64,000 nt of DNA from contig NC_059464.1 in assembly GCF_905237065.1 (NCBI RefSeq), positions 3,047,803 through 3,111,802 on the forward strand. The letters are read 5' to 3'. Below are positions 35,202 through 47,664 of the stretch, in pieces (the stretch's first letter is position 1; each line of letters opens with the position of its first letter). Under the pieces are notes generated by a model. It was not told the origin of the DNA and made no database searches. It saw nothing but the letters and a program-made list of their open reading frames with translations. This DNA comes from Salmo salar (Eukaryota). A program made the position numbers and the translations under genes.

Positions 35202-36362
35202 TCATCCAATGACTGACACATGAGTCCTGATGTGTTTGGTCAGCTTAGCCGCCTCACTGAAAGCCTTGCCACACAAGCTGCAGGTGTGGGCCCAGCCTCC
35301 GGCAAGCCGCATTCCATTATGAACACGCTGGTGCTTCCTACACGTGTAGGCGTCCTTGAAGCTCATGCCGCAGACAGGGCAGCCATACAGACGCAGCTCC
35401 GTGTGAACACGCCGGTGGTTCCTCAGTGTGCCATCGTTGTTGAATCGCTTGCCACACAGTGCGCAAACGTACGGCTTCTCCCCTGTGTGAATGCGGAGGT
35501 GGATCTTGAGGCGTGACACGTGACTGAATATCTTACCACACTGAGGGCACGGGTGGGACCTCTGATCCCCCCTGTTGTTTGTTTGTTGTTGACCCCTGTT
35601 GTTTGTGGACCTGTTTATTTGTTGATGACACCTATTTGTTGATCTATTTGTTTGTTGTTGACGTCTGGTTTGACCCTGGTAGAACTGGGAGGTCAAGGGA
35701 CCTACGGTACTGGTGGTGGTGGCGTCCCCAAAGTCTTGTTCTGGCCCTGTTGTTACACAACCATCGCTGCCAATCTGACGGAAAAAGCCGTCTGAGATCA
35801 TGGCAGCACTAGCTGATACCAGGTCAGTGGGGACGCCCGAGGCAGTGGAGGCACCATACCGGCTGCTCTCTGCAACCACTGACTCCAGGTCAGCGCTCAG
35901 GTCTGAGACAGTGTAATTGGTTTCAACAGTGGCTGGTCCAGGGTCCGAACTGGTGTTTAGTTCACCATACCCCATCTGAGCAGAAACTGACCCCAAGTCA
36001 GTAGGGCTGGTATCACTAGGCTCTGTTTTGATGCCCTCAGAGTTATAGTGTAAAACCACTCTGTCCACGGGGCATGATGTGCTGCTGAAGGGATTTGCAG
36101 AGGGAAGGAGATGCTGGTCGTCTTCTTCGTCCAAGTCCCTTTTCACAGACGCTGAAGTCAATGGAGCTACTACTGGGGTGGTAGCCGATGTATCGGTTTG
36201 TTGTGAGGACAGGGTACATGGAGAGTTACACAGACTCTTCCACTCGGTGCAGTCTGTGGGTAGCTGGCTATGTGTGGCAGGCATCTCATCCTGGCTCATT
36301 TCCATGTGGTTCTGGGTGTGTGTAGACTCAGCGTCTGGACCCTGGTCGGCGCTCCACTGGTG
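35202..36362 (-). CDS. C2H2 zinc-finger gene 1, main exon: low-complexity linker plus four C2H2 fingers and the stop codon
   Basis: The 423-aa minus ORF ends ...[117 protein letters not shown]. The fingers are canonical C-X2-C-X12-H-X3-H units joined by HTGEKPY linkers. The upstream acceptor is unresolved. The strongest polypyrimidine-AG (TTTCTCTCTCTGTCTCTGGGCAG| near 36363) gives phase 0, whereas exon 1 ends in phase 1. Confidence 0.6.
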   Translation of the reverse strand, partial: [386 protein letters not shown]

Positions 36363-36758
36363 CTGCCCAGAGACAGAGAGAGAAACAGGCCTGGTCGAGA
36401 CTGGATGGACTGACGGACATACCGACAAATAGACAGAAAAGAGAAACAAATCAGATTGATTAAGTTTAAACAACTACAGAAGCAACGACCCAGACACGAG
36501 ATCTCAAGCATTCTGTAGGATGAGCTTGTTTGTGTAATGTGGTGATCTACAAGGCTTGAGACTGTCCAAATGCCCCATATCATAATCTTCTAGAAAAACC
36601 TGCATCGCCTCCCCTTTATATACACTCAGTGAAAGAATTGACAGGTGAAAACAGTATGGGCAGCAGAGGTCTTTTTTTTCTCAGATGAGTGCAAATAAAG
36701 GAGATGAGGAGAGGTCCGATTTTTCAGACAATAGACAAAGAGCCATTTGCATCATCAC

Positions 36759-36951
36759 CTGCTGAACACTCCGTTCCCGTGTCGAGTCCAACTTCTCGTA
36801 GCCTTCGTTTTAGGAGTTCATTCTCTCTCTTCGTCCGGGCAGTCTCCTCCTCGAATTCTGACACTGTCCCCCCAACAACCTCCAGTATCTCATCTACAGC
36901 CACCATTAACCGCTCGGTGAGGTAAGCATTCAAAAGCTGAAGTTTTGCCAT
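36759..36951 (-). CDS. C2H2 zinc-finger gene 1, first coding exon with a FiNZ-like N-terminal domain
   Basis: The exon encodes MAKLQLLNAYLTERLMVAVDEILEVVGGTVSEFEEETARTKRENELLKRRLREVGLDTGTECSA, followed by the donor CAG|GTGATG in phase 1. It is paralogous to the exon at 47457-47664. The MxKLQLLNxxLxERL...EYxEEixRxKxEN pattern matches my recollection of the fish-specific N-terminal domain of FiNZ zinc-finger proteins. Confidence 0.6.
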
Positions 36952-37569
36952 TTTTTTTTAAATTAGCCTCCCCAAATATTTGTTAAAATCCAAGGAAAGC
37001 CTCCTAGTAAAGACCCAAGCTAGACTGTTTTGTAAACACCTCGGGGAAAGCATTCACTTCCTGGTTCTTTAACTCTCCATGGTCATGTGATAAAAACGCT
37101 ACCGTAATTCATGAAAAAGGGGAGGCAAGCTTTTTAAAGGGATTGCGTACTTAAAATCTACTGTTAGATTTGCACGCTTATTACCGAGTATATTAATACA
37201 TATCTTGAGTGAAGGTGATGTGAGTCAAGCATCTGGCATCTTCCTTTTGGAAATAAACAACCTGAAAGATGGTTCAACGTCAATACAAAATAAATACAGA
37301 ATCAGACATGTGATTTTAATATTTAAATGATGTACTAATTTAATTCATTTCCACAAACACACACTCTTCAATCAAGCTGGAAACATCAGCTAAAATTACA
37401 TTATCCATTCATTTTCTACTGCACTGTTTTTATTAATCCCAATAAATATATTTAGGAAATATTCCTACGGCTAAAACACTTCAACATTTCACAATCCCTT
37501 CATGTCCTCCGGTGTTTGAAAAGGTGTAGCTGATTCAGCAGTAGCTGATTAGCTAGCGCATTAACCTCA

Positions 37570-37771
37570 TGTGATGAGCTGCCCTGCATCTGTCAGGTGT
37601 GTGTTCAGGTGTACCCGCAGGCCGCTGGCCACAGTGAAGCTCTTGGGACACTGGACACAGCGATAGGGTTTCTCCCCAGAGTGAGTCCGTTTGTGCTTTT
37701 TCATGGTGTCTCCGTCGCTGAAAGTCCTGTGGCAGTAGGGGCAGCTGTAGGGTCTCTCACCGGTGTGGATC
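37570..37771 (-). CDS. Terminal C2H2 zinc-finger exon: [67 protein letters not shown]. It probably belongs to gene 2
   Basis: The minus strand has the acceptor TTCTTATTATATATTATAG|GATCCACACCGG. The exon opens in the middle of a finger (R-IHTGERPY). Joining it in phase 2 to the donor at 46253 (..CTG AG|GTTGGA) gives [27 protein letters not shown], a complete C-X2-C-X12-H-X3-H finger with a canonical linker. The stop codon is at 37567-37569. Confidence 0.5.
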
Positions 37772-46220: not shown

Positions 46221-46252
46221 CATAATAATACAATATAATAATGTATTCCAAC

Positions 46253-47130
46253 CTCAGGTGCCGTCTCAGGTTGCCTCTCTGGGTAAAGCTTTTGGAGCAC
46301 CAGGAGCAGCGGTGGGGCCTCTCCCCCGTGTGGATACGGTGGTGGCGCCGCAGGTCAGCCGACTGGGCAAAGGACTTACAGCACCAGTCACAGGCGTAGG
46401 GCTTCTTATACTGAAGGTGGAGGTGGAGGCTGGCCGCCTGGCTGAAACTCTCCCCACATCGGGTGCAGCGGTGTGGGCGCCCCTCCTGGTGGTCGGTGGG
46501 GGTGAAGTTGTTACTCTCGTTGTATGGCAACACCTGGTCCTTGGACCCAGGCTCTGTTTCATATGTTTGCTGGTCATGTACGGGTGTGTTATGGAGCTCT
46601 GAGATGTCCATATCTGGAAGGTCTTTGAAGCCAGCGTCGCCTGAGAGTTCATGGTTGTGGGGTAGTAGTGTTATAGGAAGACCTGTGTAGCCTGAACTGG
46701 ATTGAGGTTCATGGTTGGTGAGGTTCAATGTGACGTCGCATTCCTTGGGTTCCATTTTGATCCGTCCCTGGATTGGGTCGATGGGAGAGGACCTCTTTCT
46801 CTCTGTCCTAAGGACTGGCACTTCAGCGTTGGCTGCTCCAGTTGTTGTGGCACAGTGGGCATTGGAGGAGAACGGAGATGGTGCCAAGGACGAGGTGTTT
46901 CCAAAACCCTTGGCTTCTGGGTCTGAGTTGTGCTCTGTCTTTGGGATTGCCTGTCCTGGACTGGACTTCTCTTCTGCTCGGACCGTTTCAGTGTGTCCCT
47001 GGTTTGGTCCTGTGAGACCCCCATCCTTACCCAACGCTACCTGGCTCTGTGTCTGTAGCCCTCGTCTGTTGACCTGGCTCTGCTGCTGGGGCTCTGGGTC
47101 CTGTTCCTGTCTGGAGCTCCACTCTTGCTC
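46253..47130 (-). CDS. C2H2 zinc-finger gene 2, main exon: linker plus fingers, ending at a splice donor that falls inside a finger
   Basis: The minus ORF 46132-47034 and its upstream extension read ...[74 protein letters not shown]. The last finger lacks its second histidine and is followed by AG|GTTGGA in phase 2. The remainder of the ORF (LEYIIILYYY...) is intron read-through. The acceptor is unresolved and the 5' coordinate is approximate. The ORF track starts this ORF at a TTG codon. Confidence 0.55.
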
Positions 47131-47456
47131 ACAAAGCTGCTGTTGCCCAGAGAGAGAAAGGCTGGTGGAACCTGCTTAGAAAGAGGGTGCAAAGACAAAG
47201 TGCTGTCACTAAATAAGTAAGAAATTGAGTAAATATGTATGACATTGTAATTAATCATGTACTACTATTAGTTGTTAATGTTTGCTGCGAGGGATATTCG
47301 GAATTCGGGCACTTCTCACGAGCCAACGTAACGTTGCTGTCAATCGTCAACAGACAGACGTCACCCAATGTAGTTAGTTCGTTGACAGTTTGCCAACTCA
47401 TTTCTGCATGATCATTAAGTTAGCATAATCCAACAAATCCGACAAAATGTTCTTAC

Positions 47457-47664
47457 GCCAGTCTGTCTCCGCCAAGAGTAAGATGTCCCGGAGCTGTCGC
47501 CGAAGGCTTTCATTTTCTCTCTTCGCGCTTTCATTCTCTCTCTTCGTCCTAGCCGTCTCTTCTCGGTACTCGGCCACTGTGTCCCCGACTACGTCCAGAA
47601 TCTCCCGCACCACTACCGTTAAACGTTCTGTCAGGTAAGCATTCAACAGCTGCAGTTTGGTCAT
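47457..47664 (-). CDS. C2H2 zinc-finger gene 2, first coding exon with a FiNZ-like N-terminal domain
   Basis: The exon encodes MTKLQLLNAYLTERLTVVVREILDVVGDTVAEYREETARTKRENESAKRENESLRRQLRDILLLAETDW, followed by the donor TGGC|GTAAGA in phase 1. It shares about 60% amino-acid identity with the gene-1 exon over the first 45 residues. Confidence 0.6.

What the first reader, a model, noticed from the sequence alone, without database searches (positions are those of the whole stretch)
35202..47664. Tandem pair of FiNZ-like C2H2 zinc-finger genes on the minus strand in a transposon-saturated region
Two paralogous genes lie about 10.7 kb apart and share the same two-part layout. Each has a short first coding exon for an N-terminal alpha-helical module (MAKLQLLNAYLTERLMVAVDEILEVVGGTVSEFEEETARTKRENELLKRRL... 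and MTKLQLLNAYLTERLTVVVREILDVVGDTVAEYREETARTKRENESAKREN...), and both of these end in phase 1. Each also has a large exon for a low-complexity linker plus C2H2 fingers. The N-terminal module matches what I recall of the teleost-specific FiNZ domain, which defines large, fast-evolving ZNF families thought to act as transposon repressors, by analogy to KRAB-ZNFs. Apart from the first exon, the linker regions are unrelated (S/T/D-rich in gene 1, P/E/Q-rich in gene 2), and the finger counts differ (4 versus 5 or more). That pattern is typical of rapidly diversifying tandem ZNF arrays. These are the only host protein-coding sequences I could support in 64 kb.
Basis: partly seen in the sequence, partly recalled or inferred. 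Interest (0 to 1): 0.7.

Follow-up and report, generated by a model that had tools for sequence, protein, structure and literature searches.

The report
Two conserved salmon zinc-finger genes
The region holds two neighbouring, already-annotated Atlantic salmon zinc-finger transcription-factor genes that share a teleost-wide N-terminal helical module; the module is not the cyprinid FiNZ domain, and the genes are slowly evolving rather than fast-evolving transposon repressors.

Summary
The sequence observation is largely correct. Two minus-strand C2H2 zinc-finger genes share a paralogous, phase-1 first coding exon, at 36951-36759 and 47664-47457.

Gene 1 translates to a protein identical to Salmo salar RefSeq XP_014024111.1. 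Gene 2 has three coding exons, not two. Its third finger is split by an 8.5-kb transposon-filled intron, and its last exon (37771-37567) lies about 615 bp upstream of the gene 1 start codon.

The same head-to-tail pair exists in pike. Gene 2 orthologues reach flatfish and Polymixia with nearly invariant fingers. Salmon-pike dN/dS is 0.04-0.07 for the fingers and 0.07-0.13 for the N-terminal module.

The N-terminal module is not FiNZ, which is a 28-aa, cyprinid-only sequence starting MAFIKEE. It is also not KRAB or SCAN. It is a roughly 60-residue amphipathic helix with no Pfam family. A profile search found it in 1040 protein clusters, and every named member I sampled is a teleost. It shows sub-threshold similarity to the TSC22 leucine zipper.

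The best reading is a pair of conserved, probably dimerising DNA-binding transcription factors, not arms-race transposon repressors. One side observation is worth a look: the finger-splitting intron appears to be a gain in the pike-plus-salmonid lineage.

The parts
47457..47664 (-). Gene 2 coding exon 1: N-terminal helical module (69 aa, with a 7-aa internal duplication ENESAKR/ENESLRR); ends in phase 1
   Evidence: the profile family is; the pike orthologue has the same exon
47172..47456 (-). Gene 2 intron 1 (285 nt), GT...AG; alignable with the pike intron
46253..47171 (-). Gene 2 coding exon 2: acidic S/Q/T/E/P-rich linker with IKMEP (46761-46747), a degenerate finger (46467-46396), finger 2 (46392-46330) and the first part of finger 3; donor CACCTGAG|GT
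37772..46252 (-). Gene 2 intron 2 (8481 nt). It splits a zinc finger and is filled with transposon remnants. The same intron site is used in pike (2829 nt); the intron is absent in plaice and Aplochiton
44193..46224 (.). About 2-kb element with long inverted terminal arms (Tc1-like IR/DR type), with a nested 98-nt-arm palindrome at 44515-44842; it ends about 28 bp from the exon 2 donor
41164..42144 (-). Tc1/mariner transposase remnant (HTH_Tnp_Tc3_2 and DDE_3 ORFs) inside intron 2
38188..40302 (+). Broken ORFs that look like a LINE reverse transcriptase, inside intron 2. The only Pfam support is a weak RVT_1 hit at 39310-39498
   Evidence: a 90% identical copy of 39069-39270 lies at 26738-26536
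37567..37771 (-). Gene 2 coding exon 3: completes finger 3 and adds fingers 4 and 5; stop TGA at 37569-37567
   Evidence: 97% aa identity to the pike exon; full-length 443-aa orthologues
37429..37434 (-). AATAAA 132 nt after the gene 2 stop codon: candidate poly(A) signal
   Evidence: sequence match only
36952..37118 (-). Salmon-pike conserved block directly upstream of the gene 1 ATG: candidate gene 1 promoter and 5'UTR
   Evidence: 82% identity over 372 nt, including exon 1
36759..36951 (-). Gene 1 coding exon 1: N-terminal helical module (64 aa), phase 1
36410..36758 (-). Gene 1 intron (349 nt). There are tandem acceptors at 36409 and 36400, 9 nt apart
35202..36409 (-). Gene 1 coding exon 2: S/T/Q/D-rich linker with IKTEP (36032-36018), four C2H2 fingers (35549-35220) and the stop codon at 35204-35202

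Best explanation
The region contains two adjacent, anciently duplicated, protein-coding Atlantic salmon genes for C2H2 zinc-finger transcription factors.

Gene 1:
- Coding exons 36951-36759 and 36409-35202, giving 466 aa.
- It is the annotated Salmo salar 'zinc finger protein 358-like'.

Gene 2:
- Coding exons 47664-47457, 47171-46253 and 37771-37567, giving 443 aa.
- It is the orthologue of genes that annotation pipelines name 'ZNF436-like', 'ZNF629-like' or 'ZNF358' in other teleosts.

Shared architecture:
- A roughly 60-residue N-terminal amphipathic helix, the 'LTERL' module.
- A roughly 230-280-residue acidic, disordered linker carrying a conserved psi-K-x-E-P motif, which fits the SUMO consensus.
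- Four canonical C-terminal fingers.

What is shown:
- The gene structures.
- Orthology and conserved tandem synteny with pike.
- Strong purifying selection on the module and the fingers.
- The teleost-wide spread of the module.

What is inferred:
- The N-terminal helix forms a parallel coiled coil of the TSC22 or leucine-zipper type. This would dimerise the proteins with themselves or with paralogues.
- The fingers would then read a fixed, conserved DNA site of about 12 bp per monomer in host regulatory DNA.
- The linker may serve as a SUMO-dependent effector, probably repressive.

The transposons are passengers in an intron, not evidence about function.
For: Gene identity and structure:
- The gene 1 translation is identical to XP_014024111.1.
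- The gene 2 three-exon model gives a 443-aa ORF. It matches Salvelinus at 95% over 443 aa, Coregonus at 94% and pike at 80% over 442 aa, each at 100% coverage.
- The annotated pike gene uses the same three exons and the same splice sites.
- Uninterrupted full-length ORFs sit on short Logan contigs, which are probably mRNAs: P0048 on a 2260-nt contig and P0074 on a 2754-nt contig.

Synteny:
- In pike, the gene 2 orthologue is followed by the gene 1 orthologue about 710 bp downstream.
- In Umbra and Dallia the two orthologues carry adjacent locus tags.

Constraint:
- Salmon-pike dN/dS is 0.13 and 0.07 for the module, 0.29 and 0.40 for the linker, and 0.04 and 0.07 for the fingers (gene 1 and gene 2).
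- The finger sequences are nearly invariant from salmon to Hypomesus for gene 1, and from salmon to Xiphias, Pleuronectes and Polymixia for gene 2.

The module:
- AlphaFold2 predicts one helix over residues 2-61, with pLDDT 89.
- Hydrophobic periodicity peaks at 3.6-3.67 for residues 1-34 and at 3.5 for residues 35-57.
- Pfam TSC22 scores E=0.0012 for gene 1, and 7 of 68 family members score at or below 1e-4.
- hhalign against TSC22 domains gives 83% probability over 47 columns, and 87% against the GEMC1 coiled coil. It gives 0.1% against both KRAB and SCAN.
- The best PDB sequence hits are dimeric coiled coils, 5c9n and 1dip, but they are not significant.
- The profile search found 1040 clusters at E<=1e-3. 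The module is N-terminal in 186 of 266 instances. 40 of 68 long members carry C2H2 fingers, and a few carry BED or BEN domains instead.
Against: - There is no transcript evidence from salmon itself.
- Dimerisation is not shown. The monomer model is a lone helix. The model of a two-module eel protein gave two confident helices, but no contact information was available.
- The similarity to TSC22 is below Pfam's threshold (19.4 against 30 bits), and a geminin-family coiled coil matches about as well. It could therefore be generic coiled-coil composition.
- No DNA target, expression pattern or phenotype is known.
- The SUMO site is a motif match only.
- Some family members elsewhere have very large finger arrays, up to 2448 aa. 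A transposon-directed role somewhere in the family cannot be excluded.
Confidence: 0.75

Rival explanations
1. One reading: these are FiNZ-like, fast-evolving tandem zinc-finger genes that repress transposons, analogous to KRAB zinc-finger genes.
For: - The architecture is similar: a short N-terminal exon plus a finger exon.
- The module is moderately Glu-rich, at 14-17%.
- The surroundings are rich in transposons.
- The wider module family is large, with 1040 clusters, and includes proteins with huge arrays.
Against: - The FiNZ start sequence is absent.
- hhalign gives a probability of 0.3%.
- None of the 7 published FiNZ fingerprint residues match.
- FiNZ is cyprinid-only (PMC10547256), and this window is salmon.
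- Pfam finds no KRAB.
- There are only 4 functional fingers per gene.
- Finger dN/dS is 0.04-0.07.
- The fingers are invariant across orders of fish.
- The gene pair is syntenic with pike.
Confidence: 0.04
2. The N-terminal module is a true evolutionary derivative of the TSC22 domain (TSC box plus leucine zipper), captured as an exon by a zinc-finger gene in an early teleost. It keeps the dimerising and repressor-associated function of TSC22.
For: - The Pfam TSC22 hit covers profile positions 8-44 of 57 in gene 1, at E=0.0012.
- 7 of 68 family members score at or below 1e-4, with a best value of 8.7e-8.
- The precomputed Pfam list for an eel member, P0327, includes PF01166.
- hhalign gives 83% probability and P=9e-6 over 47 columns, including the motifs LM-AV-E and RENxLLK.
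- 1DIP aligns over 35 residues.
Against: - Every single-domain score is below Pfam's gathering cutoff.
- The GEMC1 coiled coil matches equally well, so composition or heptad bias may explain the similarity.
- The TSC22 sequences used were recalled from memory, apart from the 1DIP stretch shown.
- In TSC22 proteins the domain is C-terminal and is not joined to fingers.
Confidence: 0.35
3. Gene 2 is a gene broken by transposon insertion. On this view the 37771-37567 finger block is an orphaned fragment or part of another gene, and gene 2 ends, truncated, near 46132.
For: - The read-through ORF from exon 2 does reach a stop at 46132.
- 8.5 kb of transposon-rich DNA separates the two finger blocks.
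Against: - The splice junction rebuilds a perfect finger and H/C link.
- The pike annotation has the same intron at the same site.
- 443-aa orthologues in other salmonids cover 100% of the model.
- In the salmon-pike comparison the finger region, which includes exon 3, has dN/dS of 0.07.
- Exon 3 is 89% identical to the pike exon at the nucleotide level, while the intron interior is not alignable.
Confidence: 0.04

Closest known systems
Salmo salar XP_014024111.1 'zinc finger protein 358-like', with salmonid and esocid orthologues. Gene 2 orthologues include Salvelinus namaycush 'ZNF436-like' and Esox lucius 'ZNF629-like'
   Same: Gene 1 is identical in sequence to the Salmo salar entry. Gene 2 is 95% identical to the Salvelinus protein and 80% identical to the pike protein over the full length. 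The exon structure is the same in pike.
   Different: Nothing of substance differs. The human-style names are automatic labels that vary between species; I take them to come from finger similarity only.
FiNZ zinc-finger genes of cyprinids (Wells et al. 2023, PMC10547256)
   Same: Both have a short N-terminal exon, encoding a conserved helical and somewhat acidic peptide, upstream of a finger-coding exon. Both are fish-specific.
   Different: - The sequence is unrelated.
- FiNZ is 28 aa, against about 60 aa here.
- FiNZ is cyprinid-only, whereas this module is teleost-wide.
- FiNZ genes are hundreds of fast-evolving copies with long arrays. These two genes are conserved syntenic orthologues with four fingers under strong constraint.
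KRAB zinc-finger genes of tetrapods, and the actinopterygian 'KRAB-like' zinc-finger proteins of Carotti et al. (PMC9101882, PMC11603059)
   Same: An N-terminal effector module plus C-terminal C2H2 fingers.
   Different: - There is no Pfam KRAB hit.
- hhalign against KRAB gives 0.1%.
- None of the 7 published KRAB-like fingerprint residues match.
- There is no sign of an arms-race pattern of evolution.
SCAN-domain and BTB/POZ zinc-finger factors
   Same: The proposed logic is the same: an N-terminal oligomerisation module that pairs family members, joined by a disordered linker to a few conserved fingers.
   Different: The fold and sequence are different. There is no SCAN or BTB hit in Pfam, and hhalign against SCAN gives 0.1%. 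Here the module is a single long helix.
TSC22 domain family (TSC22D1-4 / GILZ; PDB 1DIP)
   Same: A sub-threshold but repeated sequence match over the TSC box and leucine zipper. Helical periodicity changes to heptad in the C-terminal half.
   Different: The match is below Pfam's cutoff. TSC22 proteins have no DNA-binding fingers, and their domain is C-terminal.

Membership tests
FiNZ zinc-finger genes | Conserved 28-aa FiNZ N-terminal sequence. The translation start is shared by 447 of 684 zebrafish genes, and the morpholino target translates to MAFIKEE | tested here: not met
   - The morpholino target is given in PMC10547256 and has no match in the window at up to 3 mismatches.
- The exon-1 peptides start MAKLQLLN and MTKLQLLN.
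- hhalign gives a probability of 0.3%. The FiNZ sequence beyond residue 7 was recalled from memory.
- None of the 7 fingerprint residues V11, I13, E15, F21, Q29, T32 and D33 match.
FiNZ zinc-finger genes | Restricted to cyprinid/cypriniform fish | tested here: not met
   The window encodes a protein identical to one from Salmo salar. The module is found in eels, mormyrids, characins, catfish, smelts, pike and percomorphs as well as cyprinids.
FiNZ zinc-finger genes | Domain exon followed by a single exon that encodes the finger array | tested here: inconclusive
   Gene 1 fits this layout. Gene 2 has its array split over two exons.
FiNZ / KRAB-type arms-race zinc-finger genes | Rapid lineage-specific turnover, with adaptive change in the fingers | tested here: not met
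   Finger dN/dS is 0.04 and 0.07 against pike. The fingers are nearly invariant across orders. Tandem synteny is conserved.
KRAB zinc-finger genes | KRAB domain (Pfam PF01352) | tested here: not met
   There is no KRAB hit at E<=1. hhalign gives 0.1% (the KRAB sequence was recalled from memory).
Actinopterygian 'KRAB-like' zinc-finger proteins (Carotti et al.) | The KRAB-like N-terminal domain. Only a 7-residue fingerprint is available: A25, L27, Q29, R37, L45, E48, L49 | tested here: not met
   None of the 7 positions match in the salmon or eel modules (against the sequences).
SCAN zinc-finger genes | SCAN domain (Pfam PF02023) | tested here: not met
   There is no hit in Pfam. hhalign gives 0.1%. 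'SCAN domain-containing protein 2-like' is only an automatic name.
TSC22 domain family | Pfam PF01166 at or above the gathering score of 30 bits | tested here: inconclusive
   - Gene 1 scores 19.4 bits, E=0.0012.
- 7 of 68 relatives score at or below 1e-4.
- hhalign gives 83%.
- 1DIP scores E=0.26.
C2H2 zinc-finger proteins | Tandem C-x2-C-x12-H-x3-H fingers (Pfam PF00096) | tested here: met
   Gene 1 scores E=1.8e-20 with 4 fingers. The gene 2 exons score 6.9e-13 and 1.9e-12.
Teleost 'LTERL' N-terminal module family (not in Pfam and not named in the papers I searched; defined here by profile A2) | Roughly 60-aa N-terminal helix with the consensus MTKLQLLNAYLTERL..V.EIL.VV..TV.EY.EE.ARTKRENE.LRR.L | tested here: met
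   - Both exon-1 peptides fit the consensus, with 29 invariant columns in A2.
- The profile search finds 1040 clusters at E<=1e-3 and 293 at E<=1e-10.
- The module is N-terminal in 186 of 266 instances.

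The most novel reading that the evidence does not exclude
The shared N-terminal 'LTERL' helix may be a so far unnamed zinc-finger-associated oligomerisation domain. It appears to be teleost-wide and possibly teleost-specific, and it may descend from the TSC22 box and leucine zipper. 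On this reading it plays in teleosts the role that SCAN or BTB play in tetrapods, defining a family of more than 1000 protein clusters that also pairs with BED and BEN domains. Separately, intron 2 of gene 2 would be a datable vertebrate intron gain. It sits at an AG|G proto-splice site inside a zinc-finger codon, and it would have arisen in the common ancestor of pikes and salmonids.
Probability: 0.3. Interest if true: 0.5.

Novelty: already known. Interest (0 to 1): 0.27.

Why it matters
The result corrects a tempting mislabel. A fish zinc-finger gene with a short helical N-terminal exon in transposon-rich DNA is not automatically a FiNZ- or KRAB-style transposon repressor.

These two genes behave like ordinary conserved transcription factors. 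They have fixed DNA-reading residues, and their head-to-tail arrangement is shared by salmon and pike.

Two by-products may be of modest use:
- The N-terminal module is abundant in teleost proteomes, has no Pfam family, and was not named in the literature I could search.
- The finger-splitting intron of gene 2 looks like a rare, phylogenetically bracketed intron gain that later grew from under 3 kb to 8.5 kb through transposon insertions.

Tried and rejected
- Pfam scans of both exon-1 peptides found no family above cutoff.
- A word-indexed protein search with the module alone returned only 17 short read-through ORFs. The exhaustive profile search was needed.
- Logan contigs L001-L006 turned out to be unspliced genomic DNA, 88-96% identical to the window. 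They gave no splice evidence.
- Exact-protein look-ups for salmon transcripts failed. Polymixia was not on record either.
- The supplements held for Wells et al. are BED files and contain no FiNZ sequences. A full-text search for 'MAFIKEE' found nothing. I recovered the FiNZ start from the morpholino sequence instead.
- Literature searches for a name for the module found none.
- The PDB sequence search gave only non-significant coiled-coil hits.
- I predicted the structure of a two-module eel protein as a stand-in for a dimer. It gave two confident helices but no usable contact information.
- I did not run fold search on a lone helix, because the matches would be meaningless.
- I considered and rejected two ideas: that the 37771-37567 block is a third gene or pseudogene, and that the genes are pseudogenes. 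The ORFs are intact and dN/dS is well below 1.
- Pfam support for the LINE-like ORFs is weak, so the transposon content is described only qualitatively.

Full report
**1. The observation**

- Gene 1 exon 1 runs from the ATG at 36951 to the donor CAG|GTGATG after 36759, which is 193 nt.
- Gene 2 exon 1 runs from 47664 to the donor GGC|GTAAGA after 47457, which is 208 nt.
- Both exons therefore end in phase 1.
- The two exons are 76% identical over 138 nt. This is the only nucleotide-level similarity between the two loci.
- tblastn finds exactly two module copies and three finger-coding blocks in the 64 kb, all on the minus strand.
- Pfam confirms C2H2 fingers in 36473-35202, in 47034-46132, and in a third block at 37824-37567 that the finding did not describe.

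**2. Gene models**

Gene 1:
- Splicing 36759 to the acceptor at 36409 gives a 466-aa protein.
- That protein is identical, residue for residue, to Salmo salar XP_014024111.1 'zinc finger protein 358-like'.
- The window is therefore Atlantic salmon, and gene 1 is already annotated.
- Oncorhynchus orthologues use an acceptor 9 nt further on, at 36400.

Gene 2:
- Exon 1 joins an acceptor at 47171. The frame is open from there, upstream of the TTG that the ORF listing reports.
- The finger exon does not end at a stop codon. It ends at the donor CACCTGAG|GTTGGA (46253). The acceptor TATTATAG|GATCCAC (37771) continues the frame.
- This junction rebuilds a perfect finger and linker (…[17 protein letters not shown]…) and adds two more fingers and a TGA at 37569-37567.
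- The resulting 443-aa protein matches full-length orthologues at 100% coverage. These are Salvelinus namaycush (95%, also 443 aa), two Coregonus copies (94% and 93%), Oncorhynchus (88-90%), Esox lucius (80%, 442 aa), Umbra and Dallia. Percomorph and Polymixia proteins match at about 50%.
- I reconstructed the annotated pike CDS from its genomic DNA. It uses the same three exons and exactly the same split site, CACCTGAG|GT…AG|GATCCACAC.
- Gene 2 therefore spans 47664-37567. Its stop codon lies only about 615 bp upstream of the gene 1 ATG.

**3. Conservation and mode of evolution**

- In pike, the gene 2 orthologue is followed by the gene 1 orthologue about 710 bp downstream, in the same orientation.
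- In Umbra and Dallia the two orthologues carry consecutive locus tags.
- Plaice has the gene 2 orthologue, but no gene 1 copy within 10 kb.
- Gene 1 has full-length relatives in the smelt Hypomesus, at 46% identity.

| Region (salmon vs pike, NG86) | Gene 1 dN/dS | Gene 2 dN/dS |
|---|---|---|
| N-terminal module | 0.13 | 0.07 |
| Linker | 0.29 | 0.40 |
| Fingers | 0.04 | 0.07 |

- In a 15-protein alignment, the finger helices are almost invariant within each orthologue group.
- This holds from salmon to Hypomesus for gene 1, and from salmon to swordfish, plaice and Polymixia for gene 2.
- This is the opposite of a rapidly diversifying, arms-race zinc-finger array.
- The linkers are divergent and low in complexity. 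They still share a common start (S-L-S-x-S-G-Q-Q…W) and an invariant psi-K-x-E-P island, IKTEP and IKMEP. This fits the SUMO consensus.

**4. What the N-terminal module is**

It is not FiNZ.
- Wells et al. define FiNZ as a 28-residue, Glu-rich sequence unique to cyprinids.
- Their translation-blocking morpholino, CTCTCCTCTTTAATAAACGCCATCT, is complementary to ATG GCG TTT ATT AAA GAG GAG, which translates to MAFIKEE.
- That target has no match in the window at up to 3 mismatches.
- A profile of the salmon-type module against a FiNZ-type N-terminus gives an hhalign probability of 0.3%. The FiNZ sequence beyond residue 7 was recalled from memory.
- None of the seven FiNZ fingerprint residues tabulated by Carotti et al. 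match. None of their seven 'KRAB-like' residues match either.
- Pfam gives no KRAB, SCAN or other family above threshold.

It defines a large teleost family.
- An exhaustive profile search found 1040 cluster representatives at E<=1e-3 and 293 at E<=1e-10.
- Every named member I sampled is a teleost. The sample includes tarpon, conger, moray, halosaur, mormyrids, arowana, milkfish, catfish, characins, knifefish, Carassius, a loach, sardine, smelts, pikes, salmonids and many percomorphs.
- Gar, bowfin, paddlefish and tetrapod proteins that were retrieved through finger similarity lack the module.
- Those non-teleost proteins were found through their fingers. Their lack of the module therefore does not show that the module is absent outside teleosts.
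- The module is N-terminal in 186 of 266 detected instances.
- 40 of 68 long members carry C2H2 fingers, and a few carry BED or BEN domains.

Structure:
- AlphaFold2 predicts one continuous helix over residues 2-61, with mean pLDDT 89.
- Hydrophobic periodicity is 3.6-3.67 in residues 1-34 and 3.5, heptad-like, in residues 35-57.

Similarity to known coiled coils:
- The only recurrent similarity is to dimeric coiled coils.
- Pfam TSC22 scores E=0.0012 for gene 1, below the cutoff. 7 of 68 relatives score at or below 1e-4.
- hhalign gives 83% probability over 47 columns against TSC22 domains and 87% against the GEMC1 coiled coil. GCN4, FOS and MAX score 1-6%, and KRAB and SCAN score 0.1%. Most of the comparison sequences were recalled from memory.
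- The PDB sequence hits, 5c9n and 1dip, are not significant.

I conclude that the module is a coiled-coil-type helix that probably mediates oligomerisation. Descent from TSC22 is possible but unproven.

**5. Mechanism**

Shown:
- Two intact, selectively constrained genes encode proteins with the order module, acidic disordered linker, four canonical fingers.
- Gene 2 has an additional degenerate first finger that lacks its second histidine. The degeneracy is conserved in its orthologues.

Inferred:
- The module dimerises the proteins, possibly including gene 1/gene 2 heteromers, since the paralogues are 68% identical in the module.
- The invariant fingers recognise a fixed DNA site in host regulatory DNA.
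- The psi-K-x-E-P lysine may be SUMOylated and contribute to repression.

None of these three inferences was testable here.

**6. Transposons**

Gene 2 intron 2 (46252-37772, 8481 nt) contains:
- an element of about 2 kb with long inverted arms (about 44193-46224), with a nested palindrome, ending about 28 bp from the donor;
- Tc1-type transposase ORFs at 42144-41164;
- reverse-transcriptase-like scraps at 38188-40302, for which Pfam support is weak.

The pike intron is 2829 nt, and its interior does not align with the salmon intron. Exons, intron 1, about 210 nt upstream of gene 2 and two intergenic blocks do align. About 20% of the window is repeated within itself. The region is transposon-rich, but the transposons are intronic passengers.

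**7. Side finding: a likely intron gain**

- The finger-splitting intron is present in salmon and pike.
- It is absent at the identical site (CACCTGAGGATCCACAC is contiguous) in plaice. In Aplochiton (Galaxiiformes) the tblastn alignment runs uninterrupted across the junction.
- It is also absent at the homologous finger of paralogue gene 1.
- One gain at an AG|G proto-splice site in the pike-plus-salmonid ancestor is the most parsimonious reading. Wider sampling is needed.

**8. Verdict**

The finding correctly spotted two paralogous zinc-finger genes and their shared N-terminal exon. The FiNZ label, the 'rapidly diversifying array' reading and the implied role in transposon repression are not supported. 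The genes are already annotated and evolutionarily ordinary. What remains of modest interest is the module, which has no Pfam family and no name in the papers I searched, and the probable intron gain.

Noticed in passing
window 46252-37772 (gene 2 intron 2); L008 11399-14227; L009 about 11734; L010 15334-16425: The intron that splits zinc finger 3 of gene 2 sits at the same site in salmon and pike. It is absent in plaice, where CACCTGAGGATCCACAC is contiguous, and in Aplochiton, where the tblastn alignment runs uninterrupted across the junction. It is also absent at the matching finger of paralogue gene 1. This looks like an intron gain at an AG|G proto-splice site in the Esociformes-plus-Salmoniformes ancestor, later expanded from under 3 kb to 8.5 kb by transposons.
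   Followed up: partly
window 36032-36018 (IKTEP) and 46761-46747 (IKMEP): An invariant psi-K-x-E-P island, which fits the SUMOylation consensus, is conserved in the otherwise divergent linkers of all 15 aligned family members.
   Followed up: partly
window about 47541-47500 (gene 2 exon 1): There is a 7-residue tandem duplication inside the module (ENESAKR-ENESLRR). It is shared with Salvelinus, pike and Dallia and is absent from percomorph, Polymixia and P0048 orthologues. It adds exactly one heptad to the heptad-like part of the helix.
   Followed up: partly
window 36409 and 36400: Gene 1 has tandem acceptor sites 9 nt apart. The salmon RefSeq protein uses the upstream site, which adds three residues (His-Pro-Val). 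The O. kisutch and O. gorbuscha proteins correspond to the downstream site. This may be alternative splicing.
   Followed up: no
window 47875-47665, 37477-37292, 37118-36952, 34560-34327: These non-coding blocks are conserved between salmon and pike at 70-82% identity. They are candidates for the gene 2 promoter, the gene 2 3'UTR, the gene 1 promoter (which contains a CAGGAAGTG ETS-like motif) and a downstream element. No AATAAA or ATTAAA occurs within 1.2 kb after the gene 1 stop codon.
   Followed up: partly
window 44515-44842: A near-perfect palindrome (98-nt arms, 96% complementary, 113-nt loop) is nested inside the long-inverted-repeat element. It looks like a MITE.
   Followed up: no
window 15536-16106 (inside ORF 15286-16200) and 51890-52050 / 18678-18787: The first region holds tandemly repeated DNA with offsets of 108, 216 and 324 nt, which creates a long open frame with no Pfam match. 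The second pair is a simple-repeat tract shared between two sites.
   Followed up: no
window 24966-25745 (+), 13322-13798 (-), 48917-49227: Further transposon remnants lie outside the finding. These are a second Tc1 transposase N-terminal ORF (HTH_Tnp_Tc3_2, E=1e-22), a reverse-transcriptase fragment with RVT_1 and ALKBH8_N hits, and a 91% identical copy of that fragment's neighbourhood.
   Followed up: no
proteins P0018, P0022, P0023, P0090 (eels, a characin, a goby): Some annotated proteins carry 2-4 copies of the module. Either tandem genes were fused by the annotators, or these are true multi-module proteins. A few members pair the module with BED or BEN domains, or with no fingers at all, as in the mormyrid protein P0106.
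   Followed up: no
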